Shown here in pieces: positions 13,236 through 43,407 of a stretch of DNA of 64,000 nucleotides. The translations under genes and the position numbers were made by a program. The notes below the pieces were generated by a model that saw nothing but the letters and a program-made list of their open reading frames with translations, was not told the DNA's origin and made no database searches. Each line of letters opens with the position of its first letter. The first letter of the stretch is position 1. The DNA comes from Patescibacteria group bacterium (GTDB taxonomy: Bacteria; Patescibacteriota; Minisyncoccia; Phycocordibacterales; DATDWN01), in the NCBI GenBank assembly GCA_013816135.1, contig JACDEV010000002.1:33120-97119 (forward strand), read 5' to 3'.

Positions 13236-14147
13236 TTAGGCTTTTTTTAATAACAAATTGATTGCTTTGGTCACGAGTGGAAGGATATCATTATAGAAGT
13301 TTAGGTCAAGTATGTCAGCTAATTTGAACCATTTTGCATCATCTAGCCCACCTTTCTGCTCAACGACTATATCTTTATATTGTGATTCTGCCAAAAAGTA
13401 AACTACATGTTTTCTAGTCTTGCCTTTTTCAGGGTGGTAAGCAATGTATTCGTTTTCACCAAGTTTCTCTTTAATCTCAATATCGAGTCCGAGTTCCTCT
13501 TTTATTTCACGGATAGTTCCTTCCTCAATAGTTTCATTGGCAACTTCAGGACTATCACCTATTTTTCCTTTTGAAAGTGTCCACCTCCCGAAAACATCGT
13601 GTACTAATGCAAGATAAATATCTTCTCCATCTTTGGCATAGACAACTGCTCCGCCTAATTTTTCATTATGGACCACAGCACCATTTGCAATCTTATTTTT
13701 TGTCTTGGAAGTTTCGTCCTTGCCTGGCTCGCCAAGTTCTTTGTATACAGCACCCAATACTCCGTTAACAAACTTACTTGATGTGTCTCCTCCAAAAGCT
13801 TTGGATAATTCAATTGCTTCATTGATAGCCACCTTAGGAGGAACTTGTGATCGGTCGGCAAAAAGCAGTTCGTACAATCCTATACGCAAAATATTTCTAT
13901 CTATTATATTGATTTTATCCATTGGCCAATCAGGAGCAGCTTTAACAATAATCAAATCAATATCTTTTTGTTTACCTAAAACTCCCTTGAGCAAAGTTTC
14001 CATAAAGGAAAAATCTCCCAAACCGGGAGCAAATTCCTCTGCATTACGCGCAAAAATTTCCATAGCCTGATCAGAATTTCGTGAACCGAAATCCCATTCA
14101 AATAGTGTCTGCAATATTATTGATCTGGAAAGGTGCCGGTTTGCCAT
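13236..14147 (-). CDS. nusB: NusB-like antitermination domain fused to a C-terminal Nudix hydrolase domain
   Basis: The N-terminal ~140 aa are a NusB fold (LFEWDF...FVNGVLGAV). The C-terminal half carries the Nudix box GX5EX7REIKEELGL. Confidence 0.75.
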   Translation of the reverse strand: MANRHLSRSIILQTLFEWDFGSRNSDQAMEIFARNAEEFAPGLGDFSFMETLLKGVLGKQKDIDLIIVKAAPDWPMDKINIIDRNILRIGLYELLFADRSQVPPKVAINEAIELSKAFGGDTSSKFVNGVLGAVYKELGEPGKDETSKTKNKIANGAVVHNEKLGGAVVYAKDGEDIYLALVHDVFGRWTLSKGKIGDSPEVANETIEEGTIREIKEELGLDIEIKEKLGENEYIAYHPEKGKTRKHVVYFLAESQYKDIVVEQKGGLDDAKWFKLADILDLNFYNDILPLVTKAINLLLKKA

Positions 14148-14340
14148 AATTAAGTGGTTCTAATTCCTAGAAATAGCATACCAAAAAATAAATTCTTAGT
14201 CTAGGGTAGTAACAATCAACTTAAACTTTCAAATTTGAGTGAAATCCGAGGCGGATAAGGAAAAGAACTGGAGACGTATAGTAATACGTTGACAGGTATT
14301 TTCTGAAATCCAACGACGGAGTTCGCCAAATTTGAAAGTT

Positions 14341-14568
14341 TTATCTACCTTCCTTCTTTGCTGCTTGAGCTTTTTTGTTGCGCTTTGTAATCTTTGCCTG
14401 AACATCTATTACCTGTCTGCCTTTGTACAATCCAGTTACAAGTGATGCTCGGTGTCGAAGATGAGGAACGTTTGTGCTTTTATCTACAGTTACTGCAGGA
14501 GAAGATAAGCCATCGTGAGATCGCCTGTTGTTTCTATGACTTTTGGTGCTACGCATTCTTACTACCAT
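14341..14568 (-). CDS. rpmF: 50S ribosomal protein L32
   Basis: RRSHDGLSSPAVTVDKSTNVPHLRHRASL...GLYKGRQVI matches the L32 consensus. The true start may be the downstream Met (14556). Confidence 0.8.
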   Translation of the reverse strand: MVVRMRSTKSHRNNRRSHDGLSSPAVTVDKSTNVPHLRHRASLVTGLYKGRQVIDVQAKITKRNKKAQAAKKEGR

Positions 14569-19300: not shown

Positions 19301-19590
19301 GTGATTCAAATATAAAAAAACTAAAAGAAACTTCAAAGGAAAAGGACTCTGTTGTGGTTGGAGGAATAATTGAAGAAATAAAAAGCGTTATGACTAAAAA
19401 AGGTGATAAAATGATTTTCTTGAAAATTGCTGATTTGTCCGACAACATTGAGGCTGTAGCTTTTCCTAAAATATTTGAGGAATTCCAAGATATATTAACT
19501 CCTGAGAACTGTGTAGTTGTAAAAGGTACTTTCTCTACTCGAAATGGTGGAAAAAGTATACTAGTTGATAAAGTGAAATTAATGGAGTGA
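16333..19590 (+). CDS. dnaE: DNA polymerase III alpha subunit
   Basis: PHP domain (FIHLHTHSHYSLL), polymerase core, and C-terminal OB fold. 1085 aa. Confidence 0.9.
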   Translation: MQIMASKFIHLHTHSHYSLLNALPKIKALVDEAKKNDMPALALTDNCNLYGAVEFYQACKKKDIKPIIGIDAYVSYRSRHDKQTGIDKERYRLVLLAKNDVGYKNLIKLVTLAHVEGFYYKPRIDRELMEKYSEGLIAIAPSFQSDILSSLKLANTEKAMERLAWYKKTFNGSDEEPNFYLEVTHHPEIKGHDENMTKIIAFAKETKTPLVAANDVYYISPEDRPARETLMAVQQNIDIADRSPETDDLSFISDKTAKKYFKDLPDALENTTKIADRCNLEISIGKWFLPKYIVESGLSYDDELRRIVEEGIPKRKLAKTPELLERMEYELKIIKDKGYAPYFLVVSDLLRYAHANGILTTIRGSVAGSLATYLAGITNVNPIEYLLPFERFLNPERPSAPDIDMDFADNRRDQMIDYARGKYGFDKVAQIGTFGTMAARGAVRDVTRALGFPYVTGDTIAKLIPMGAQGFPMTIDRALKEEPDLKKLYEAESDVKKIIDMAKKIEGCARHISVHAAGVVISPTPLTDYVPLQYDTKGDNKIITQYDMHAVGEDGVGLLKFDFLGIRNLSILADAVKLAEKIEGVKVDIENVPVDDKKVFEMLARGETVGLFQLNGDGMTRSLMELKPTAIHDINLMVALYRPGPMENINEYIARKHGKKPVVYLHPKMKKFLDKTYGVLVYQDDLLMTAIEVAGYTWGEVDKFRKAVGKKIREEMAKQHIKFVEGCITHGGMERKKAEELWNLFEPFQGYGFNKAHAASYGKVAYQTAYMKTHFPAIYMSAVLTAESGNIEMISEIVGECKRMKIPVLPPDVNESFEGFTVVKTTVNNIQPVIKESVDSIRFGLTTIKNFGEGIATSIIEERKANGPFVSISDFLRRIKDKNLNKKSLESLIKTGALDSFDQTHTENFRAMLLFNLDRLLTFNKEERSKETDQDSLFSLMATPAQASEVHLEKSPPSNPTDKLGWEKDLLGLYISGHPLDSFREKLSGRDSNIKKLKETSKEKDSVVVGGIIEEIKSVMTKKGDKMIFLKIADLSDNIEAVAFPKIFEEFQDILTPENCVVVKGTFSTRNGGKSILVDKVKLME

Positions 19591-19787
19591 GAATTTAAAT
19601 AGTTTTTCCAAGACACGCATAAAGTTCTATTGAACTTTTGCTATGCTCGTCAATCAAGAAAACAAACAATAAAATGAGTTGGTCCTCTCGCAAACTCGGG
19701 ATTACCCTCAAACAGTGCTTCGGACTATTCATTTTATTGTTGTTTTCTAATTGACTGTGCAATGTCTTGGAAAAACTATTTAAATTC
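19591..19787. repeat. MITE-like element: perfect 25-bp terminal inverted repeats flanking an imperfectly palindromic ~150-bp core
   Basis: GAATTTAAATAGTTTTTCCAAGACA (19591-19615) is the exact inverse complement of 19763-19787. Inner arms (CAATCAAGAAAACAAACAATAAAATGAGT) also pair imperfectly. Starts 1 nt after the dnaE stop. Confidence 0.5.
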
Positions 19788-19800
19788 TTTGATGGAAAGA

Positions 19801-20369: not shown

Positions 20370-21635
20370 ATGACTGACGAAAATGCAAAAAACAGCGGAA
20401 ACGAGATGGACAAAAATGACCACAGAGTACTAGGTAAAGAACTAGATCTATTTGTTTTTTCAGATGTTGTTGGAAAAGGACTACCTCTTTATACAGAAAA
20501 AGGAGCAGCAATAAGACGTGAATTAGAAAGGTTCATTGTGGATGAAGAAATTAAACGCGGGTACAGACATGTCTCAACTCCAGATATAGCAAAACTAGAT
20601 TTATACAAAAAATCTGGACATTACCCATACTACAAAGACACAATGTATGCTCCTATAGATATTGATGGAGAAGAGTTTATGCTTCGTCCAATGACTTGTC
20701 CTCATCATTACGAATTATATTTATCAAAACCACACTCATACAAAGAACTTCCAGTACGTATTGCAGAGATGGCAAAATTATATAGATACGAAGCTTCTGG
20801 AAACCTTTCAGGACTTGTAAGAGTTCGGTCTTTCTGCCTGGCTGATGCCCATATAATTTGTGCAAACAACGAACAATCCCTCGCTGAAGTAAAAAAGGCG
20901 CTTGATTTGATAACATATATAGCAGAAGTTTTTGGTTTGAAAAAAGGAGAGGATTTCTGGTACAGACTCTCTTTAGGTAACAGAAAAGACGATAAAAAAT
21001 ATCATAAAGACGATAAAATCTGGGACGAGTCAGAGGAAATCCTTAGAAGTGTATTGAAAGGCCAAGATGTAAGATTTTATGAAGCAGAAGACGAAGCTGC
21101 ATTCTATGGTCCAAAAATTGATGTACAAATGAAAGATGTTCGTGGACTGGAAAACACTGCTTTTACTGTTCAGTATGATGCTCTTGCTCCTGGCAAATTT
21201 GAACTTTCATACACAGATTCTGACGGTAAAATAAAACTTTGTACTTCAGTTATCCATCGATCATCTATCGGTGCTATTGAAAGGAGTATGGCTTTCCTTA
21301 TCGAAAAATATCAAGGGAGCTTCCCTCTTTGGCTTTCTCCTGTCCAAGTCAAAGTAATTCCTGTACGTGAAAACCACAATGCGTATGCTAAAGAAATATT
21401 TGATATGCTTATTGATCAAGGCATACGAGCAGAACTAGATAACTCAGATGAGAACTTAGGAAAGAAGGTTAGAGATGCCAAGAATAATAAAATGCCTTAC
21501 TGGATTGTAATAGGAGATAAGGAAATAGAAGCTGAAAAAATAACACTTGAATCAAGAGATAATGGTCAATTAGGACAACTATCAAAAGACGAAGTGATGA
21601 CCAAATTACAGACAGAAATTAAGAATAAAAAATAA
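20370..21635 (+). CDS. thrS: threonyl-tRNA synthetase, catalytic core plus anticodon-binding domain only (no N-terminal TGS/editing domains)
   Basis: HRVLGKELDLF and LRPMTCPHH class II ThrRS core motifs, then a C-terminal class II anticodon-binding domain. Only ~25 aa precede the catalytic core, versus ~240 aa in canonical ThrRS. Confidence 0.85.
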   Translation: MTDENAKNSGNEMDKNDHRVLGKELDLFVFSDVVGKGLPLYTEKGAAIRRELERFIVDEEIKRGYRHVSTPDIAKLDLYKKSGHYPYYKDTMYAPIDIDGEEFMLRPMTCPHHYELYLSKPHSYKELPVRIAEMAKLYRYEASGNLSGLVRVRSFCLADAHIICANNEQSLAEVKKALDLITYIAEVFGLKKGEDFWYRLSLGNRKDDKKYHKDDKIWDESEEILRSVLKGQDVRFYEAEDEAAFYGPKIDVQMKDVRGLENTAFTVQYDALAPGKFELSYTDSDGKIKLCTSVIHRSSIGAIERSMAFLIEKYQGSFPLWLSPVQVKVIPVRENHNAYAKEIFDMLIDQGIRAELDNSDENLGKKVRDAKNNKMPYWIVIGDKEIEAEKITLESRDNGQLGQLSKDEVMTKLQTEIKNKK

Positions 21636-22497: not shown

Positions 22498-24585
22498 TTA
22501 TATATCTATAGTAGCCTTTGTCGCATTTGACTGTATAAATGATTTTCTAGCTGGAACATCAGTTCCCATGAGAATATCAAAGACTTTGTCTGCAGCTCCA
22601 ATATCCTGAACAGCTACTTGTTTTAGAATTCTTCTAGCAGGATCCATAGTTGTTTCCCAAAGTTCATCTGAGTTCATTTCTCCAAGACCCTTGTATCGTT
22701 GGATTGAAATCTTAGCTTTTTTCTTTTCGTCTTTCTTTGTAGTTTTTTCTTCTACTTCATCTTCTTCAGTTTCTTCAGGCTCATCTGCAACTTCATCAAC
22801 TTCCGCAATATCATCTACGTTTTCCTTTCCAATAATTTTTACTTTGTCTTCATCTGAATAAGCATAAAATACTTCCTTTCCTTTCTTGATCTTATATAGA
22901 GGTGGTTGAGCGATATAAATAAATCCTCCATCAATAAGTGGTTTAAAGAATCTGTAGAGCAATGTCAGAATAAGAGTTCTGATGTGGGCACCGTCCACGT
23001 CAGCATCTGTAGCTATAATTATCTTGTGATATCTAAGTTTTGTAATATCAAATGTATCTCCGATAGCCGTACCCAAAGCGATAACCAGATTCTTTATCTG
23101 TTCAGATTCCAACATTCTATCAAGTCTTGCTCTTTCGATGTTTAGTATCTTTCCTCGAAGTGGAAGAATGGCTTGTGTTCTTCTATCGCGTCCCGTCTTT
23201 GCAGTACCTCCCGCAGAATCTCCCTCCACAATAAACAGTTCTGAATCTTCAGCACTCTTCGACTGACAGTCAGCTAACTTTCCAGGGAGAGTCATTCCTT
23301 CCAAAGCTCCTTTACGCAACACAGAATCCTTCGCAGCTTTTGCCGCTTTTCTAGCTTTCAAAGCTAAGACAACTTTATTTATAATAGCTTTAGCGTCATC
23401 TGGATTTTCCTCTAGGAAATAAGTAAAAGCTTCTGAGAAAACAGTGTTAACTGAGCCTTGTGCCTCAACTGTTCCAAGTTTACCTTTTGTCTGACCTTCA
23501 AACTGAATCTCACGAAGTTTAATTGACACAACAGCGGTCAAACCCTCAAGCACATCTTCTCCAGTGAAGTTATCTTCAGATTCTTTTATAAGATTATTTT
23601 TTCTTCCGTATGAATTAAGAATTCTAGTGAGCGCAGTTTTAAAACCAGTTACATGTGTACCTCCTTCTGGAGTATTAATATTGTTTGCAAATGCTGATAG
23701 TCTGCAAGTTATATCATCTACATATTGGAGAGATATTTCTACCGACTCCCATTCATTAGTTTTCTTCTCAATATAAAAAACATTCTTATGAATAGGCTTC
23801 TGAGTGCTGTTCATGAACTTTACCAAAGAAAGCAATCCTCCTTCGAAATAAAAAGACATGGAAGGAATCTCTAGTTCGAGCTCTGAAATCTTGAATACAT
23901 CGTCTTCTTTTATTTTGCCTTCATATTTTGAAGCGTCGTTTACAGTGATCCTGAGGCCTTTCACTAGATACGCTTGCTGACGCATATGGTCCATTATTCG
24001 CTTTGGATTGAATTCAATTATTGGGAAAATAGCTGGATCAGGTTCGAATACAACGATAGTTCCGTTTTTCTTTGTTGTACCTACTTTCTTTACAAGAGCT
24101 TTTTTCTTTCCTTGAGAATACTCTTGCATATATACACCACCTTCTTTGTGAACAATAACTTTACAATAAATAGAAAGAGCGTTTACAACAGATGCTCCCA
24201 CTCCGTGCAATCCTCCTGACACTTTGTATCCGCCATCTTCTCCACCAAATTTTCCTCCGGCATGGAGAGTAGTCATAATAGTTTCAAGAGCTGAAACTTT
24301 TGTTTGTTTGTGAATATCAACTGGAATACCTCGCCCGTTATCGGATACTCGGATTCGGTTACCCGGAAGAAGTGTTACCTCAATATCGTTTGCAAAACCA
24401 CCCATGGCCTCATCACGAGAGTTATCAAATATTTCTGTTATGAGGTGATGGAGACCATCAAGACCCGTAGTCCCAATGTACATTCCAGGACGCTTTCTAA
24501 CAGGTTCTAGTCCTTCAAGTATCTGAATGGCATCAGCTCCATATGAGTCCTTTTTTGCCTTTTTTCCTAAAATTTCCTTAGCCAT
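22498..24585 (-). CDS. gyrB: type IIA topoisomerase ATPase subunit B (DNA gyrase B or ParE) with an acidic C-terminal insertion
   Basis: GHKL ATPase, transducer and TOPRIM domains. PGMYIGTT and EIFDNSRDEAMGG motifs. Confidence 0.85.
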   Translation of the reverse strand: MAKEILGKKAKKDSYGADAIQILEGLEPVRKRPGMYIGTTGLDGLHHLITEIFDNSRDEAMGGFANDIEVTLLPGNRIRVSDNGRGIPVDIHKQTKVSALETIMTTLHAGGKFGGEDGGYKVSGGLHGVGASVVNALSIYCKVIVHKEGGVYMQEYSQGKKKALVKKVGTTKKNGTIVVFEPDPAIFPIIEFNPKRIMDHMRQQAYLVKGLRITVNDASKYEGKIKEDDVFKISELELEIPSMSFYFEGGLLSLVKFMNSTQKPIHKNVFYIEKKTNEWESVEISLQYVDDITCRLSAFANNINTPEGGTHVTGFKTALTRILNSYGRKNNLIKESEDNFTGEDVLEGLTAVVSIKLREIQFEGQTKGKLGTVEAQGSVNTVFSEAFTYFLEENPDDAKAIINKVVLALKARKAAKAAKDSVLRKGALEGMTLPGKLADCQSKSAEDSELFIVEGDSAGGTAKTGRDRRTQAILPLRGKILNIERARLDRMLESEQIKNLVIALGTAIGDTFDITKLRYHKIIIATDADVDGAHIRTLILTLLYRFFKPLIDGGFIYIAQPPLYKIKKGKEVFYAYSDEDKVKIIGKENVDDIAEVDEVADEPEETEEDEVEEKTTKKDEKKKAKISIQRYKGLGEMNSDELWETTMDPARRILKQVAVQDIGAADKVFDILMGTDVPARKSFIQSNATKATIDI

Positions 24586-24657
24586 ATTGGAAATATTATA
24601 TCAAAAATAAGTATGCTAAACAAGCGATTTATTCATATTTTTAGGCTTAAATTATAC

Positions 24658-24686
24658 TTGACAAATAGTTATTATTGTGCTAATAT
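24658..24686 (+). promoter_or_regulatory. consensus sigma70 promoter TTGACA-N17-TAATAT
   Basis: -35 at 24658-24663, -10 at 24681-24686. SD GAAGAGG precedes the ATG at 24741. Confidence 0.6.
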
Positions 24687-24740
24687 TGTAAATAGAAAGA
24701 CTCACAGTCTAGCTATCTAACAACTGAAGAGGTATAAGAC

Positions 24741-24938
24741 ATGAGAAACTTTATGAGAGGATTTGCAACCGGCTTTGGTGCTGAAGTGGTCATGGGGGTT
24801 CTCCTCTATGTTTTCCTTCAGTCACAGAATGCCCTTCGACCGGGCACCGGAACCACGTACATCGCTGTAATGGGAAGCTTCGCACTGTTTTTCGGCGTTA
24901 TCACAGGCATTGGAGTAATCACCCGGAAAAAAATCTAG
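24741..24938 (+). CDS. small membrane protein (65 aa, two predicted TM segments), GC-rich
   Basis: ORF with a strong promoter, an SD and a strong terminator. Confidence 0.45.
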   Translation: MRNFMRGFATGFGAEVVMGVLLYVFLQSQNALRPGTGTTYIAVMGSFALFFGVITGIGVITRKKI

Positions 24939-24968
24939 AGGCAAGCCGCCACCAATCCCGATACAGAA

Positions 24969-25005
24969 CCTCGCACAGATGTGCGACTCTGTGCGGGGTT
25001 TTTGT
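24969..25005 (+). terminator. rho-independent terminator
   Basis: CGCACAG-ATGTGCGACT-CTGTGCG followed by GGG TTTTT. Confidence 0.65.
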
Positions 25006-25064
25006 ATTTATTTAAACTCGTTGAAACAAAGCAATTTATTCAGATTTTTAGCCTTAAATTAAGG

Positions 25065-25093
25065 TTGACAATAGAATAAATTTAAAGTATAAT
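25065..25093 (+). promoter_or_regulatory. consensus sigma70 promoter TTGACA-N17-TATAAT
   Basis: -35 at 25065-25070, -10 at 25088-25093. The ~45 nt upstream are a near-duplicate of the sequence upstream of the 24658 promoter. Confidence 0.65.
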
Positions 25094-25129
25094 CCGAAAA
25101 GACGAAACGGTGAACAAGTACCGAAAGGA

Positions 25130-25555
25130 GTGGTCGTGAGGAGATTTGTATTCTATGTAAGGGTCCTATGGGCACCAGTATCAGTGGTTGCCCTAATTGT
25201 ATTGGGCCTCGCTATTCTGGATGGTCCAACTACGATTACGGTCGCGGAACGGACAGACATTGCCCAGCCTGGCGACATCGATATGGCTGTGGCAAATCAA
25301 CAGTTCGCCTCAGCCAAGCCATCCGACATCGTTTTCCTGGACTCATACGGTTACCTAGATTTCCAGGAAACCGAGAATGAAACGGGTTTGTATATTCTCC
25401 GCTCCGGCTCATATACAATCCGGATCGGTCCAAAAGCAGTAACCCAGTACCATGCGAAAATAATCAAGAATGGTACAGCGGAGTACGACGCGATTCGTGA
25501 TCTGGAACAAAAACGAAGAAATATCTCCGATCCAGGACCAGTCGTCTGGTTCTAA
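25130..25555 (+). CDS. small secreted/membrane-anchored hypothetical protein, GC-rich (~50% GC)
   Basis: SD AGGAG followed by a GTG start. N-terminal hydrophobic segment VLWAPVSVVALIVLGLAIL. Strong terminator follows. Confidence 0.45.
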   Translation: MVVRRFVFYVRVLWAPVSVVALIVLGLAILDGPTTITVAERTDIAQPGDIDMAVANQQFASAKPSDIVFLDSYGYLDFQETENETGLYILRSGSYTIRIGPKAVTQYHAKIIKNGTAEYDAIRDLEQKRRNISDPGPVVWF

Positions 25556-25580
25556 CCCCGTCACAGAAACCCGTACAGAA

Positions 25581-25617
25581 ATGTACGAACTCTGTACGGG
25601 GTTTTTGTATTCTAAAA
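25581..25617 (+). terminator. rho-independent terminator homologous to the one at 24969-25005
   Basis: CCGTACAG-AAATGTACGAACT-CTGTACGG followed by GG TTTTT. Same GGGGTTTTTGTATT tail as the previous terminator. Confidence 0.65.
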
Positions 25618-25776
25618 ATATCGTTGACTCATAAGTTTTCTGAGACTTTCACAGGCTGACGAGCCGAGAATAGCAAAATCCTAGCAAGGATTTATGTGTG
25701 TTGAAGAAAACTTATGAGGAGAAAGAGATTGTGGATTTGAGTTGAATTTTTGGCCATTTTTGGCTAGACTGTCTAG

Positions 25777-26943
25777 ATGAACAAAGACGATATACAGCCG
25801 GACCTTAACCCTACCGAATACATCATTTCAAAGGATAATGAGAACACGGTTTTGGAATCTTTGGAAAAGCGCGAGGATGCCGAGGCTATTCGCATAAGGC
25901 GATATCTCGATATGTCCGACCTTTCTAGAAAAGACGGTAGTCCCCTATCTGAAATCATAAAGAGAGTAAAAAACCTACCTCTTATCAAAGGTTTTGACGA
26001 TGTGGTTATTCCAGAGATAGTGCCGGCTGACATAAGCTTTGATTTATTTGACTTTGCCGCAGATCATCCAGCCCGTAGCAAATCTGATACATATTATGCG
26101 GACGATAAAAACATACTCCGAACACATGACACGGTCATGTGGTATTACTATTTAAATCTGCCTGAAATAAAACAAAGAATTGCAGAAAATAAAACACTCG
26201 GCGTTCTTTGTTATGGAAAAGTTTACAGAAAAGATGAGATAGATCGAAAGCATATGAACATCTTCCATCAGATGGGAGGGTTATACTTGGTTCCGGATAA
26301 TAAAGAAGCGTTGACGATTGATGACTTGAAAAATATCTTATCTGAAATAGTTAAAGGGATCTTTGGACCTCAAGTGGAATTCAGATTCCTTTTAGACACT
26401 TTCCCTTACACAGATCCAAGCCTTCAAGTAGAAGTTATGGTAAACGGCGACTGGCTAGAGATATTGGGTGGAGGTATGCCAAAGAAAAGCGTCCTCAAAA
26501 ACTTTGGATTAGAAGGCTACCACGGGTGGGCATTCGGATTCGGTTTAGAAAGACTAGCGATGATCAGCTTAGAGCTTCCAGATATACGCCTACTATGGTC
26601 ACCTGATCCTAGGGTAATAAAACAGCTTAAATTAGGTAATAAGTATGTAGAAGTAAGCAAATATCCGGAAATAACGCGGGATATTTCTTTCATTGTAGAT
26701 AAAGATTTCATGCCAAATAACTACTTCGACTTAATCCGGGATATCGGCGGGGACTTAGTTGAACAGGTAGAGATGCTAGATAAATATGAGAACACAGAAA
26801 AATTCGGTGTAGATAAGATTAGTTACGCCTATAGAATAATTTACAGAAGTAATGATAAAACTTTGCGAAGCGAAGAAGTCGATGCTTTGCACAAAAAAAT
26901 AGAAGAAGAAACTATAAAAGCCTTCGGGGCTTCAGTTCGATAA
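25777..26943 (+). CDS. pheS: single-chain (mitochondrial-type) phenylalanyl-tRNA synthetase: PheS-like class II catalytic domain plus C-terminal FDX-ACB anticodon-binding domain
   Basis: Class II motifs HPARSKSDTYY, FRFLLDTFPYTDPSLQVEV, WLEILGGGM, GWAFGFGLERLAM. The C-terminal ~100 aa (ITRDISFIVDKDF...) match the ferredoxin-fold FDX-ACB module. No pheT gene in the window. Confidence 0.7.
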   Translation: MNKDDIQPDLNPTEYIISKDNENTVLESLEKREDAEAIRIRRYLDMSDLSRKDGSPLSEIIKRVKNLPLIKGFDDVVIPEIVPADISFDLFDFAADHPARSKSDTYYADDKNILRTHDTVMWYYYLNLPEIKQRIAENKTLGVLCYGKVYRKDEIDRKHMNIFHQMGGLYLVPDNKEALTIDDLKNILSEIVKGIFGPQVEFRFLLDTFPYTDPSLQVEVMVNGDWLEILGGGMPKKSVLKNFGLEGYHGWAFGFGLERLAMISLELPDIRLLWSPDPRVIKQLKLGNKYVEVSKYPEITRDISFIVDKDFMPNNYFDLIRDIGGDLVEQVEMLDKYENTEKFGVDKISYAYRIIYRSNDKTLRSEEVDALHKKIEEETIKAFGASVR

Positions 26944-38861: not shown

Positions 38862-39065
38862 AACTTCACCTCTATCTATACCATAACATCTTAAACTAAT
38901 TTGTCAAACGTTTTTCGAATAATGCTAAATTAAAATCTCGTTGGCTCATAATCTTTTTGGAGGCTCAGAAGCGCGACGGCGCGAGGATTCGAGAGATTTT
39001 TCAGTAAGAAAAATCGCGTACTCCAAAAAGGTTGTGAGTCAAGAAGAGATTTTATAAATACAAAA

Positions 39066-42553: not shown

Positions 42554-43192
42554 TTAGGCTTCTGGGATGACTTCCTCCTCCTTCTTACCCTTCTTTTCTA
42601 CTTCAATTGTAGACAAGTCTACTGGTGTAGTATCTTCTACTTCTTCTTCCTTAGGAGCTGCAGCAGAAGCTACAACCTGATCAGGAAGCTCGATTAAAGT
42701 TACACCTGTTGGAAGTTTGATTTCAGAAGCAATAATTACACTGTCGAAAGTTTCAAGAGTTGAAATATCAACCTTAATGTCATGAGGAATATGTTGTGGA
42801 TCTGCGGAAATTTTTAATTCGTGTAGGGCTTTTACCAAGCTTCCTCCTAAGTCTTTAACTGCAGGAGCAACGCCTATGAAATCCAATGGTACAGAAACTT
42901 CGAGTTTCTTTCCTTTTTCGAATACGTAGAAATCAGCATGTCGTGGGATATCAGAAACTGGATCAAGGTCAACAGCTTTGATAAGTGCATCAACTGGACC
43001 TGTAGCACTCTGAAGAGTTACAACTCCTGATTCACCTACTGCATGCCAAACTTTAATAAATTCCTTTCGTATTAGAGTAATTGGAGTAGCGTTTGTCTTC
43101 TTTCCGTAAAAAACTGCAGGCATTTTGCCTTCTTTCCTGAGGAGATCTAGATTTTCTTTATTATCTCGTAGAGCAGCATCTAATGTAGTCAT
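42554..43192 (-). CDS. rplY: 50S ribosomal protein L25 / general stress protein Ctc
   Basis: L25 N-domain (RKEGKMPAVFYGK) with the Ctc-type C-terminal extension. Confidence 0.85.
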   Translation of the reverse strand: MTTLDAALRDNKENLDLLRKEGKMPAVFYGKKTNATPITLIRKEFIKVWHAVGESGVVTLQSATGPVDALIKAVDLDPVSDIPRHADFYVFEKGKKLEVSVPLDFIGVAPAVKDLGGSLVKALHELKISADPQHIPHDIKVDISTLETFDSVIIASEIKLPTGVTLIELPDQVVASAAAPKEEEVEDTTPVDLSTIEVEKKGKKEEEVIPEA

Positions 43193-43407
43193 TCGGCCAG
43201 TATATAGAAAAGGTGATAAAAAATCAACCTCCGATCACAATTACAAAATCTCTTTCTCATCATATCTTTTTTTGAGCCACATAAAAGCCTACTGGCTTTT
43301 TGTTCTGTCTCGGCTACCCGCCTGCGAATGCTCCAAAAAAAATATTACTCGACGAGATTTTGTACACTAGCTCAAATCTAAGTTTCGAAGTTACTTATTG
43401 TTATCTG

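What the first reader, a model, noticed from the sequence alone, without database searches (positions are those of the whole stretch)
25620..26943. Monomeric, mitochondrial-type PheRS preceded by a structured leader
The only PheRS-like gene encodes a single chain. A PheS-type class II catalytic core is fused to a C-terminal FDX-ACB anticodon-binding domain, the architecture of mitochondrial PheRS. Canonical bacterial PheRS is a PheS/PheT (alpha-beta)2 enzyme, and no pheT is present here. The gene is preceded by a ~150-nt leader with a 12-bp long-range stem (CTCATAAGTTTTC...GAAAACTTATGAG) enclosing a smaller hairpin. No T-box consensus was seen, so this may be a different regulatory RNA.
Basis: partly seen in the sequence, partly recalled or inferred. 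Interest (0 to 1): 0.55.

Follow-up and report, generated by a model that had tools for sequence, protein, structure and literature searches.

The report
Single-chain PheRS; hairpin is a dispersed repeat
A candidate-phyla-radiation bacterium encodes the one-chain, mitochondria-style enzyme that loads phenylalanine onto tRNA. The hairpin in front of the gene is not a leader: it is one copy of a previously uncatalogued structured repeat found at gene ends across this bacterial group.

Summary
The ORF at 25777-26943 is real. It encodes 388 aa: a PheS-type class II core plus a C-terminal FDX-ACB domain. The predicted fold matches human mitochondrial PheRS over its whole length (TM 0.76). All four residues that read G34 of tRNA-Phe are invariant in the family. 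Homologues 66-73% identical occur throughout one large Paceibacteria (Patescibacteria) clade, often next to gyrB.

The protein is not a member of the SrmL "mystery ligase" family. It falls just below the pheS_mito cutoff. It carries a family-specific active-site swap (Glu to Gly, with Thr to Asp nearby). No pheS or pheT is in the window. Absence from the rest of the genome could not be tested.

The "leader" reading fails. A conserved promoter abuts the ATG, so the mRNA is leaderless, as for about half the genes here. The hairpin lies upstream of that promoter.

The hairpin is real (14-bp perfect stem) but is one of four copies in the window of a ~125-nt three-way-junction element. The element also occurs in 13 of 80 related loci, nearly always at gene 3' ends. 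Covariation is very strong: 44 of 44 pairs show compensatory changes. It matches no Rfam family. It is not associated with PheRS in any relative.

The parts
25777..26943 (+). CDS of the single-chain, mitochondrial-type phenylalanyl-tRNA synthetase (388 aa plus stop)
   Evidence: ORF with an in-frame stop directly upstream. Pfam, NCBIfam and PDB matches. AF2 model with pLDDT 89.3 whose best fold match is 3CMQ.
25936..26625 (+). Class IIc catalytic core (residues 54-283). It carries motif 2 (YRKDEIDRKHMNIFHQMGG), the Phe pocket (F209, Y211, A252) and motif 3 (GWAFGFGLERLA).
   Evidence: PF01409, E 9e-54. Residue mapping onto human mtPheRS (PMC5521548).
26656..26940 (+). FDX-ACB anticodon-binding domain (residues 294-388) with D335, Y337, S349 and R388
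   Evidence: PF03147, 81.5 bits. These residues align with human D364, F366, S375 and R414, which contact G34. They are invariant in 47 family members.
25742..25770 (+). Predicted promoter: -35 TTGAAT at 25742-25747, a 17-nt spacer, -10 TAGACT at 25765-25770, then 6 nt to the ATG. This implies a leaderless mRNA.
   Evidence: In the 81 loci, 41 TAnA[AC]T hexamers end 6-9 nt before the ATG. The full -35/-10 pattern is present in 34 of 81. The same layout is seen in about half of the window's genes. No transcript data were available.
25610..25736 (+). Copy c1 of the ~125-nt structured intergenic element. Outer stem P0: 25613-25622 with 25725-25734. P1: 25628-25641 with 25705-25718. P1b: 25643-25646 with 25700-25703. 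Hairpin P2: 25654-25665. Hairpin P3: 25673-25697.
   Evidence: Fold, consensus structure, and covariance-model matches of 105-132 bits.
43241..43366 (-). Copy c2 of the element. It lies between the stop of the fructose-bisphosphate aldolase gene (43408) and the L25 gene, about 20 nt before the L25 promoter.
   Evidence: 57.8 bits with the single-sequence model (E 5e-11) and 100.7 bits with model R3. Context.
38927..39057 (+). Copy c3 of the element. It lies 9 nt from the stop of the release-factor gene and is antisense to both neighbouring genes.
   Evidence: 32.2 bits with model R1 and 105 bits with R3. Context.
19589..19790 (-). Copy c4 of the element, between the convergent dnaE gene and a 134-aa gene. 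A ~98-nt perfect hairpin is nested inside P2.
   Evidence: 24 bits with R1. 47.5 bits, E 1.7e-9, with R3 and filters off. Fold.
25567..25608 (+). Intrinsic-terminator hairpin and T-run of the upstream orphan ORF. It is part of terminator repeat D2.
   Evidence: Inverted repeat I6 and direct repeat D2; sequence.
24622..25627 (+). Lineage-specific ~1.1-kb insert between gyrB and the PheRS gene. It holds two GC-rich orphan ORFs (24741-24938 and 25130-25555). Each lies between a copy of promoter repeat D1 and a copy of terminator repeat D2.
   Evidence: Repeats, GC content of 48-52% against about 36%, and no family match. Relatives have only 20-130 nt at this position.
22498..24585 (-). gyrB. It is the divergent neighbour of the PheRS gene in 34 of the 80 related loci.

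Best explanation
The gene encodes the phenylalanyl-tRNA synthetase used by a large clade of Paceibacteria (Patescibacteria/CPR). It is a single chain: a PheS-type catalytic core followed by the FDX-ACB domain that in ordinary bacteria sits at the C-terminus of PheT. This is the architecture of mitochondrial PheRS.

Inferred mechanism, by homology:
- Phe and ATP bind in the conserved class IIc pocket (H117, T119, R151, Q165, F209, Y211, A252).
- The FDX-ACB domain reads G34 of tRNA-Phe through D335, Y337, S349 and R388.
- There is no editing (B3/4) module, so fidelity rests on the synthetic site.
- A clade-specific coupled change moves the acidic group that helps hold the substrate's amino group. 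The equivalent of human Glu159 becomes Gly167, and the equivalent of human Thr120 becomes Asp118.

The mRNA is most likely leaderless, starting at or next to the ATG from a promoter at 25742-25770.

The hairpin upstream is not part of this gene's regulation. It is one copy of a dispersed ~125-nt element: a long stem flanked by A and U tracts that closes a three-way junction with two conserved hairpins. The element sits at gene 3' ends in many Paceibacteria. Here it lies behind the terminator of an inserted cassette and 20 nt ahead of the PheRS -35 box. Most likely it works at the RNA level as a terminator or insulator-type 3'-end element, or is tolerated there as a selfish structured repeat.

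Shown: architecture, fold, residue conservation, distribution, promoter position, element copies, covariation and genomic context.
Inferred: enzymatic activity, monomeric state, leaderless start, and the function of the element.
For: Protein:
- Pfam finds PF01409 plus PF03147 only.
- The best PDB sequence match is human mtPheRS at E 1e-58, against 1e-33 for bacterial PheS.
- The AF2 model has pLDDT 89.3. Foldseek's top hits are 3CMQ and 5MGU, TM 0.76-0.77 over 386-391 columns.
- The G34 contacts D364, F366, S375 and R414 (PMC7540514) align with D335, Y337, S349 and R388, which are invariant in 47 sequences.
- Motif 2, motif 3 and the Phe-pocket residues are conserved.
- More than 7000 homologues were found. 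The top 120 are all 375-435 aa with the same two domains and 68-73% identity.
- 213 hits were confirmed in species-representative genomes. The named ones belong to the Zambryski-, Kaiser-, Adler-, Taylor-, Nomura-, Vogel- and Colwellbacteria lineages.
- Synteny with gyrB (34 of 80 loci) and with a GT2 glycosyltransferase (19 loci) is conserved.
- The window is otherwise housekeeping genes.
- A true SrmL protein (P0264, 376 bits) is only 34% identical to the query. It differs at the pocket and anticodon residues.
- A fully listed Paceibacteria genome with canonical pheS and pheT has no single-chain form.
- The coupled swap is HDT...G in this family, against H[TM][ST]...[ED] in almost all other sequences.

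Promoter and leaderless start. In several relatives a tRNA gene abuts the ATG.

Element:
- The window holds 4 copies, and relatives hold 18 more matches.
- 92.7% of cells are paired. All 44 pairs show compensatory changes. The covariation score is 0.876 against 0.215 when shuffled (0 of 500 shuffles reach it) and 0.13-0.16 when the partners are slid.
- G.U pairs outnumber A.C mismatches 37 to 10.
- Of the 19 placeable copies, 17 face the 3' end of a gene. Seven of these lie between convergent genes.
- There is no Rfam match.
Against: - Genome-wide absence of pheS and pheT was not tested. Only 64 kb of a probable 0.6-1 Mb genome was available.
- The query scores below both the pheS_mito and SrmL cutoffs.
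- A Glu/Asp that is conserved in nearly all other PheRS is Gly in this family, and one of the two Phe residues that sandwich the substrate is Tyr. An altered substrate cannot be excluded.
- Related single-chain proteins occur in bacteria that surely have canonical PheRS, for example an Oligoflexia MAG (P0124). The architecture alone therefore does not prove a PheRS role.
- There is no transcript evidence for the leaderless start or for transcription of the element.
- The element occurs in both orientations relative to its neighbours: 6 sense and 4 antisense in tandem contexts. This fits a plain terminator imperfectly.
- The covariation in the outer stems could simply reflect independent host hairpins.
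- The covariance-model alignment is fitted to the structure it is used to test.
Confidence: 0.72

Rival explanations
1. The protein is an accessory PheS-like ligase of unknown substrate, of the 'SrmL-like mystery ligase' kind. It coexists with a canonical PheS/PheT enzyme encoded elsewhere in the genome.
For: - The top NCBIfam hit is NF051887 SrmL, at 224.9 bits.
- The query is below the pheS_mito cutoff.
- The conserved acidic residue after FHQ is Gly in all 120 closest homologues, and F234 is replaced by Tyr.
- Single-chain relatives exist in non-CPR bacteria such as Oligoflexia.
- Absence of pheT was tested only in the window.
Against: - The SrmL cutoff of 300 bits is not met. A true SrmL is only 34% identical and has lost the G34-stacking residue, the Ser and the terminal Arg. 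It also has His in place of F209.
- This family keeps all four G34 contacts and the Ala252 specificity residue.
- Identity of 66-73% across an order-level clade, together with conserved synteny beside gyrB, is the pattern of an essential translation gene.
- Genomes of this group are very small.
- The one fully listed Paceibacteria genome with canonical pheS/pheT lacks the single-chain form.
- A compensating Asp118 appears exactly where Gly167 appears.
Confidence: 0.12
2. The hairpin is a cis-regulatory 5' leader (riboswitch, attenuator or T-box substitute) that controls PheRS expression.
For: - The fold is strong and non-random: -53 kcal/mol with z = -4.19.
- It lies on the same strand, directly upstream of the gene.
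- An SD-like GAGGAG overlaps the 3' arm.
Against: - The conserved -35/-10 pair lies between the hairpin and the ATG, with the -10 only 6 nt from the ATG.
- Upstream gaps in relatives are mostly 20-130 nt, and in some a tRNA gene abuts the ATG.
- Neither sequence search nor covariance-model search finds the element upstream of PheRS in any of 80 relatives.
- The same element sits at three unrelated sites in the window and in both orientations.
- A strong intrinsic terminator precedes it.
Confidence: 0.04
3. The element is an independently transcribed, multi-copy small RNA gene, roughly 110-130 nt, whose own closing stem and U-tract act as its terminator. It would have a trans-acting or protein-binding function rather than being a terminator for neighbouring genes.
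For: - The core is strand-specific. Reverse-strand scores are 27 bits against about 100 bits.
- G.U pairs far outnumber A.C mismatches, which points to RNA-level selection on one strand.
- Orientation is roughly random with respect to neighbours.
- Junction motifs are conserved (CGAG after P2, AG before P3, an AGYA loop, CGU after P3).
- A TAAAAT-like hexamer overlaps the 5' strand of P0 in copies c1-c3.
Against: - Four copies in 64 kb, and three in 11 kb of L073, is unusually dense for an sRNA gene.
- No convincing -35 box was seen.
- If transcription started after that hexamer, P0 could not form, and the U-tract would be about 10 nt away from the remaining stem.
- Placement against gene 3' ends is near-universal.
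Confidence: 0.25
4. The element is a non-autonomous mobile repeat (MITE, REP, RPE or PATE-like) that spreads into terminator hairpins and has no host function.
For: - It is multi-copy and dispersed.
- The three L073 copies have near-identical cores but different outer stems.
- Copy c4 carries a nested hairpin insertion.
- The 8-bp termini AAAATCTC and GAGATTTT are conserved in copies c2 and c3, with close variants in c1 (AAAATATC / GAGATTGT) and in L048.
- The outer stems resemble this genome's plain 17-19 bp terminators.
- Copy c1 sits in a lineage-specific insert.
Against: - No transposase, RAYT or Y1 gene is in the window.
- No target-site duplication was recognised.
- Copies within the window are only about 60-77% alike, so they are old.
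- P2 and P3 covary across genomes, with 97-99% of cells paired.
- The G.U bias argues for selection on RNA structure.
Confidence: 0.3

Closest known systems
Mitochondrial phenylalanyl-tRNA synthetase (human FARS2, yeast MSF1; 'PheRS-M'; TIGR00469; PDB 3CMQ and 3TUP)
   Same: - Single chain: a short N-terminal region, a class IIc core and a C-terminal FDX-ACB domain.
- No editing domain.
- Best match by both sequence and fold.
- The G34-reading residues are conserved.
- About 40% identity to eukaryote-type representatives in the library search, and about 32% to human mtPheRS in the structural alignment.
   Different: - Bacterial and chromosomal, beside gyrB.
- The N-terminal region lacks the NLHxxxxHPL motif of the mitochondrial type.
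- It lacks the ~20-residue insertion after motif 2.
- Human Glu159 is Gly, Thr120 is Asp, Ser121 is Thr and Phe234 is Tyr.
- The score is below the TIGR00469 cutoff.
- In a neighbour-joining tree it groups with other bacterial single-chain proteins (87% bootstrap), apart from the mitochondrial-type clade.
Canonical bacterial (alpha-beta)2 PheRS (PheS/PheT; TIGR00468 and TIGR00472)
   Same: The catalytic core is homologous to PheS (163.5 bits). The FDX-ACB domain is homologous to the C-terminal B8 domain of PheT (71 bits).
   Different: - It has no PheS N-terminal coiled coil, and none of the B1-B7 domains of PheT, including the B3/4 editing site.
- Both cutoffs are missed.
- Some Paceibacteria (Ca. 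Yanofskyibacterium) still use the canonical pair.
SrmL, 'PheS-related mystery ligase' (NCBIfam NF051887)
   Same: It is also a bacterial single chain, and it aligns over both the core and the C-terminal domain (profile positions 39-344 of 349).
   Different: - The query scores 224.9 against a cutoff of 300.
- A true member (P0264) is 34% identical.
- That member differs at F209 (His), G231 (Glu), W251 (Leu), Y337 (Ile), S349 (Asn) and the terminal Arg.
Intergenic palindromic repeat families of bacteria (ERIC, Rickettsia RPE, Neisseria Correia elements, REP/BIME)
   Same: - About 100-150 nt, imperfectly palindromic, multi-copy and intergenic.
- They often lie in transcribed 3' regions.
- The hairpin is maintained by compensatory changes.
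   Different: - The core here is a three-way junction with two conserved hairpins and conserved junction motifs.
- It is conserved across order-level divergence.
- No target-site duplication or associated transposase was seen.
- This comparison rests on general knowledge of those families, not on a test made here.
Bidirectional intrinsic terminators
   Same: An A-tract, a long stem and a U-tract, placed right after stop codons and often between convergent genes.
   Different: The 'loop' is a conserved ~65-nt branched module. The core is strand-specific.
T-box and pheST attenuator leaders
   Same: They occupy a position upstream of an aminoacyl-tRNA synthetase gene.
   Different: - No Rfam T-box or leader match.
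- The element lies outside the predicted transcript.
- It is not associated with PheRS in relatives.

Membership tests
Mitochondrial-type single-chain PheRS (PheRS-M, TIGR00469) | One polypeptide with a class IIc (PheS-type) catalytic core | tested here: met
   PF01409 at residues 54-283, E 9e-54.
Mitochondrial-type single-chain PheRS (PheRS-M, TIGR00469) | A C-terminal FDX-ACB anticodon-binding domain on the same chain | tested here: met
   PF03147 at residues 294-388, 81.5 bits against a cutoff of 31.1.
Mitochondrial-type single-chain PheRS (PheRS-M, TIGR00469) | Score at or above the curated equivalog cutoff (258.35 bits) | tested here: not met
   223 bits for this protein. The 60%-identical family representative P0121 reaches 264.3.
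Mitochondrial-type single-chain PheRS (PheRS-M, TIGR00469) | Overall fold of mtPheRS | tested here: met
   AF2 model with pLDDT 89.3. Match to 3CMQ at TM 0.76, 386 columns, rmsd 3.6.
Mitochondrial-type single-chain PheRS (PheRS-M, TIGR00469) | Residues that recognise G34 of tRNA-Phe (human D364, F366, S375, R414) | tested here: met
   D335, Y337, S349 and R388, invariant in 47 sequences.
Mitochondrial-type single-chain PheRS (PheRS-M, TIGR00469) | Phe and amino-group binding residues (human H119, S121, Q157, E159, F232, F234) | tested here: inconclusive
   H117, T119, Q165 and F209 are kept. E159 is Gly167 and F234 is Tyr211, with Asp118 as a possible compensation (PMC5521548).
Mitochondrial-type single-chain PheRS (PheRS-M, TIGR00469) | Monomeric quaternary state and tRNA-Phe aminoacylation activity | not testable with these tools
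   Requires biochemistry.
Mitochondrial-type single-chain PheRS (PheRS-M, TIGR00469) | Acts as the sole PheRS (no PheS/PheT in the same compartment or genome) | tested here: inconclusive
   None is present in the 64-kb window or in 0.83 Mb of relatives' flanks. The reverse case, a canonical pair without the single chain, was seen once.
SrmL (NF051887) | Score at or above the curated cutoff (300 bits) | tested here: not met
   224.9 bits. The true member P0264 scores 375.8 and is 34% identical to the query.
Canonical bacterial PheS (TIGR00468) | Score at or above the cutoff (237.45 bits) and an N-terminal PF02912 domain | tested here: not met
   163.5 bits. No PF02912 was found.
T-box leader or other Rfam cis-regulatory RNA | A match to an Rfam covariance model | tested here: not met
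   No match at gathering score, and none other than noise at E <= 10 in 25500-25850.
5' leader of the PheRS mRNA | Lies between the promoter and the start codon, and is conserved upstream of orthologues | tested here: not met
   The predicted promoter at 25742-25770 is downstream of the hairpin. No homologue was found upstream of any of 80 orthologues. No transcription-start data were available.
Structured RNA family (new: Paceibacteria three-way-junction intergenic element) | Several independent members whose predicted pairs are kept by compensatory changes | tested here: met
   22 members. 44 of 44 pairs show changes on both sides. 92.7% of cells are paired, against 53% when shuffled and 44-48% when slid. 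Caveat: the alignment is fitted to the model.
MITE-type mobile repeat | Terminal inverted repeats conserved in sequence, target-site duplication, multiple copies | tested here: inconclusive
   Multiple copies: yes. An 8-bp terminal repeat is conserved only in the window's copies and L048. No target-site duplication was recognised. No transposase is in the window.
Intrinsic terminator | A stem followed directly by a U-run, located after a stop codon | tested here: inconclusive
   P0 ends in UUUU(G/A)U in copies c2, c3, L048 and L073, but the run is weak in c1 (GAUUGUGG). 17 of 19 placeable copies face the 3' end of a gene. No functional data.

The most novel reading that the evidence does not exclude
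An order-level clade of Patescibacteria has discarded the heterotetrameric, editing-competent PheRS. It relies instead on a single-chain enzyme belonging to a bacterial lineage that is sister to mitochondrial PheRS, not derived from it. If so, the 'mitochondrial' enzyme type would be a bacterial invention later recruited by eukaryotes. In addition, the hairpin beside the gene would represent a new, widespread class of structured RNA (a three-way-junction 3'-end element) specific to these ultra-small bacteria.
Probability: 0.3. Interest if true: 0.75.

Novelty: new variant of a known kind. Interest (0 to 1): 0.6.

Why it matters
Monomeric PheRS is treated in the literature I could read (PMC5521548, PMC11580382) as the organellar form. 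The origin of that form is unresolved.

A whole bacterial clade that uses a single-chain, editing-less PheRS would matter in several ways:
- It would provide bacterial relatives with which to root the mitochondrial enzyme.
- It would be a natural experiment in translation fidelity without PheRS editing. The ThrRS in the same window also lacks its editing region.
- It would be a compact enzyme with an unusual relocation of the acidic group in the active site.
- It affects marker-gene practice. pheT and pheS models would report false 'missing genes' in these genomes, and annotation pipelines call many of these proteins 'hypothetical'.

Separately, the upstream hairpin led to a covarying, multi-copy structured element that is absent from Rfam. 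Together with pervasive leaderless promoters, it says something about how ultra-small genomes punctuate transcription.

Tried and rejected
- **Hammerhead ribozyme.** CUGACGA in the P2 loop and GAAA at the 3' arm of copy c1 suggested a type III hammerhead. I rejected this because no Rfam ribozyme matched even at E <= 10, the motif is absent from the other copies, and the junction lengths do not fit.
- **T-box, SRP, 6S and 5S RNA.** No Rfam match, and the element's copy number is wrong for these.
- **Exact-arm scan of JGI metagenomes for the inverted repeat.** It returned one unrelated AT-rich contig, L083.
- **Sequence searches of the leader against relatives.** nhmmer and blastn found nothing. 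They only revealed the D2 terminator repeat.
- **Literature on a bacterial or CPR monomeric PheRS and on SrmL.** All ten paper searches found no description.
- **Supplementary-table look-ups for pheT presence or absence per genome.** Only one usable genome was found, PMX_810_sub, which has the canonical pair. Four other papers gave nothing.
- **Whole-genome test for pheT.** It was not possible. The protein search tools need a close seed and list only the top 120 hits, so a negative result would have been uninformative.
- **Replication origin at the divergent gyrB/PheRS gap.** I considered this because of the local GC-skew turn. I dropped it because gene orientation does not switch on a larger scale.
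- **N-terminal extension of the ORF.** Excluded by the TAG codon at 25774-25776.
- **Orphan ORFs of the insert.** They match no Pfam, NCBIfam or PHROG family.
Full report
**The observation**

The window holds an ORF at 25777-26943 (+) of 388 codons. A TAG sits directly before the ATG, so the start cannot lie further upstream. Pfam finds two domains and nothing else.

The long-range stem is also real. It is a perfect 14-bp inverted repeat, 25628-25641 with 25705-25718, with 63 nt between the arms. The region folds at -53 kcal/mol with z = -4.19. A perfect 14-bp inverted repeat with a gap of 100 nt or less is expected only 0.08 times per shuffled window.

**Where the sequence comes from**

The exact protein is on record from a 'Patescibacteria group bacterium' MAG (H0W91_00925). 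It also occurs in a metagenome assembly and in a Logan contig. The window is a core chromosomal stretch. It carries dnaE, RNase III, a nusB-NUDIX fusion, RNase HII, SMC, RNase R, ThrRS, gyrB, EF-Ts, S2, a release factor, L25, glycolytic and pentose-phosphate genes, and ribonucleotide reductase.

**What the protein is**

- By sequence, the best solved relatives are human mitochondrial PheRS chains (E about 1e-58, covering both domains). They are well ahead of bacterial PheS (1e-33) and PheT (1e-7, C-terminus only).
- An AlphaFold2 model built on 47 family sequences has mean pLDDT 89.3. Its best PDB matches are 3CMQ, 5MGU and 8P8X, at TM 0.76-0.77 over 386-391 columns.
- In the human enzyme, G34 of tRNA-Phe is read by Asp364, Phe366 (Tyr in Thermus), Ser375 and Arg414 (PMC7540514). 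In the HMMER alignment these correspond to D335, Y337, S349 and the C-terminal R388. All four are invariant in the 47-sequence alignment.
- Motifs 2 and 3, and A252 (by my recollection the equivalent of E. coli Ala294), are conserved.

One feature is unusual. The acidic residue after FHQ is human Glu159, which together with Thr120 and Gln157 holds the water that contacts the substrate's amino group (PMC5521548). It is Gly in all 120 closest homologues (FHQ[MFI]G[GA]). Exactly these sequences have Asp at the Thr120 position. The pattern is HDT...G, against H[TM][ST]...[ED] in almost all other sequences. The 60%-identical relative P0121 still has HTT...D. I read this as a relocation of the acidic group. 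That is an inference, not a result. In addition, human Phe234 is Tyr211 here.

**Family relations**

More than 7000 homologues were found. The top 120 are 375-435 aa, have the same two domains, and are 68-73% identical. A scan of one genome per species confirmed 213 loci. The named ones are Zambryski-, Kaiser-, Adler-, Taylor-, Nomura-, Vogel- and Colwellbacteria, Minisyncoccia and 'Paceibacterota'. Synteny is conserved: gyrB is the divergent upstream neighbour in 34 of 80 loci, and the GT2 glycosyltransferase and a 234-aa ORF follow in 19.

NCBIfam ranks the query between two models and below both cutoffs. SrmL, the 'PheS-related mystery ligase', scores 224.9 against 300. pheS_mito scores 223 against 258.35. 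The family's 50%-cluster representative P0121 passes pheS_mito (264.3). A true SrmL protein (P0264, 375.8 bits) is only 34% identical and differs at the pocket and anticodon residues.

I built a neighbour-joining tree rooted on E. coli PheS. The Paceibacterial clade has 100% bootstrap support. With 87% support it joins four other bacterial single-chain proteins, one of them from an Oligoflexia MAG. This group sits apart from the eukaryote-type clade. Monophyly of the eukaryote-type clade is only weakly supported (33%). The method is crude and the taxon labels are sparse, so the direction of any transfer is open.

**Is it the only PheRS?**

In the window, yes (and the Pfam scans). In 0.83 Mb of flanks from 80 related genomes there is also no canonical pheS or pheT. 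Two loci (L067, L046) have a free-standing ORF resembling the B2 domain of PheT just upstream of the gene.

I could not read a whole genome of this clade, so the key test remains open. One informative data point came from a published table. It lists all 866 genes of Ca. Yanofskyibacterium PMX_810_sub, another member of the Paceibacteria. That genome has one canonical pheS and one pheT and no single-chain form. This fits mutual exclusivity, seen from the opposite side.

The ThrRS in this window also lacks its N-terminal editing region. Loss of aaRS editing therefore seems to be a theme in this genome.

None of my ten paper searches found a description of a bacterial monomeric PheRS or of SrmL.

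**The 'leader' is not a leader**

- When the 110 nt upstream of the start are lined up in 81 loci, a promoter is seen hard against the ATG. The consensus is TT(T/G)A(C/A)N, 17 nt, TAnA(C/A)T, 6-9 nt, ATG.
- 41 TAnA[AC]T hexamers end 6-9 nt before the start, against 0-2 at any other offset. 34 loci show the full two-box pattern.
- In the window the pattern is TTGAAT (25742-25747), 17 nt, TAGACT (25765-25770), 6 nt, ATG. There is no Shine-Dalgarno sequence.
- The same layout holds genome-wide. A TAnnnT hexamer ends exactly 6 nt before the start in 15 of 47 genes, where about 1.6 would be expected by chance. SD-like motifs are seen in only 8.
- In some relatives a tRNA gene ends 0-1 nt before the PheRS ATG.
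- The mRNA is therefore most likely leaderless, and the hairpin lies upstream of the promoter.
- Relatives mostly have only 20-130 nt upstream. Nothing resembling the hairpin was found there by nhmmer or blastn.
- The window instead carries a ~1.1-kb lineage-specific insert between gyrB and the PheRS gene. It holds two GC-rich orphan ORFs, each framed by a duplicated promoter repeat and a duplicated terminator repeat.

**What the hairpin is**

A covariance model built from the hairpin alone found further copies inside the window. They are 43255-43352 (-) at 57.8 bits (E 5e-11), 38941-39042 (+), and 19605-19773 (-), the last with a ~98-nt hairpin nested in one loop.

With flanks, the unit is about 125 nt. 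It consists of:
- an outer stem P0 (AAAAUCUC with GAGAUUUU) flanked by A and U tracts;
- a ~14-bp stem P1 that differs between copies but stays complementary;
- a short P1b;
- a three-way junction carrying a GC-rich 4-bp hairpin P2 (loops GACG, GAAG or GUAG) followed by CGAG;
- a 7-10-bp hairpin P3 with an AGCA or AGUA loop, followed by CGU.

Iterated models found 22 matches in the window plus 13 of the 80 relatives' loci, all at positions unrelated to PheRS. L073 has three in 11 kb. A search of the window with filters off gives exactly four copies.

On the 22-member alignment:
- 92.7% of cells pair.
- All 44 pairs show compensatory changes.
- The covariation score is 0.876, against 0.215 for shuffles (0 of 500 reach it) and 0.13-0.16 for slid partners.

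The alignment is model-fitted, and the outer stems could be independent host hairpins. However, P2 and P3 alone are 97-99% paired and covary fully. G.U pairs outnumber A.C mismatches 37 to 10, and reverse-strand scores are far lower. Both point to RNA-level selection on one strand. No Rfam family matches any copy.

**Context of the element**

Of the 19 copies that could be placed, 17 face the 3' end of at least one gene, often within a few nucleotides of the stop codon. Seven lie between convergent genes. In tandem contexts, 6 are sense and 4 antisense. Copies c1 and c2 both end about 20 nt before the -35 box of a leaderless gene. The outer stems look like this genome's plain terminators, which are 17-19 bp perfect AU-rich hairpins.

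My best reading is an RNA-level 3'-end element of the terminator or insulator type. It may have spread as a repeat. An independent multi-copy sRNA and a purely selfish MITE-like repeat are live alternatives, and I cannot separate them without transcript data. What is settled is that the element is not a PheRS-specific regulator.

**Verdict**

- The protein half of the finding stands. This is a bacterial, clade-wide, mitochondrial-type single-chain PheRS with an unusual active-site swap. 'Sole PheRS' is likely but unproven.
- The leader half is replaced by two different observations: leaderless expression, and a new covarying dispersed element.
- I rate the finding a new variant of known kinds, with interest 0.6.

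Noticed in passing
whole window, e.g. 22498-24585 (gyrB), 20370-21635 (ThrRS), 42554-43192 (L25): Leaderless layout is pervasive. A TAnnnT -10 hexamer ends exactly 6 nt before the start codon in 15 of 47 genes, and 6-8 nt before it in 22 of 47. SD-like motifs precede only 8 of 47 genes.
   Followed up: partly
L003 5915-5988, L010 5915-5988, L071 3644-3716, L079 5915-5987: In several relatives a tRNA gene (Thr-TGT or Met-CAT) ends 0-1 nt before the PheRS ATG. tRNA 3' processing would then leave a leaderless mRNA, reminiscent of mitochondrial tRNA punctuation.
   Followed up: partly
window 20370-21635 (+): The threonyl-tRNA synthetase is only 421 aa and matches the thrS model from profile position 165 onward. 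It therefore lacks the N-terminal region, probably the editing domain. With the PheRS, this makes two synthetases in the window without an editing domain.
   Followed up: no
window 24622-25627: A ~1.1-kb insert between gyrB and the PheRS gene is absent from relatives. It holds two GC-rich (48-52%) orphan ORFs (65 and 141 aa). Each lies between a copy of promoter repeat D1 (24622-24664 and 25029-25071) and a copy of terminator repeat D2 (24986-25024 and 25589-25627), like exchangeable cassettes. The ORFs match no Pfam, NCBIfam or PHROG family.
   Followed up: partly
L067 5557-5967 and L046 4631-5035: A free-standing 134-136-aa tRNA_bind ORF sits directly upstream of the single-chain PheRS gene. 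Its best NCBIfam hit is the B2 region of PheT (pheT_bact positions 45-148, 98.7 bits). It may be a relic of pheT or a tRNA-binding helper acting in trans. It is seen in only these two loci.
   Followed up: partly
window 14223-14341: Another long structured hairpin (15-bp outer arms, about 120 nt, -58 kcal/mol) lies in the 534-nt gap between the nusB-NUDIX gene and a NUDIX gene. It matches no Rfam family and is not a member of the three-way-junction element family.
   Followed up: partly
window 19589-19790 (-): Element copy c4 carries a ~98-nt near-perfect hairpin nested inside its P2 loop. This suggests insertion of one hairpin element into another.
   Followed up: no
L073 1579-1708, 9025-9142, 10533-10665: Three element copies lie within 11 kb of one relative. 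Their ~65-nt cores are almost identical but their outer stems differ. This is as expected if the core spreads into pre-existing hairpins, or if it is homogenised within a genome.
   Followed up: no
L002 (Logan contig SRR11719869_1064801), start = window 25701: An independent assembly of the same sequence breaks inside the element, 76 nt before the PheRS ATG. This may reflect population heterogeneity or an assembly problem at the repeat.
   Followed up: no
window 13236-14147 (-): NusB is fused to a C-terminal NUDIX hydrolase domain in one 302-aa ORF.
   Followed up: no
L048 5834-5967: A long hairpin lies in the unusually long (473-nt) gap upstream of the PheRS gene of L048. It was picked up only as spurious miRNA-like Rfam hits and was not examined further.
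   Followed up: no
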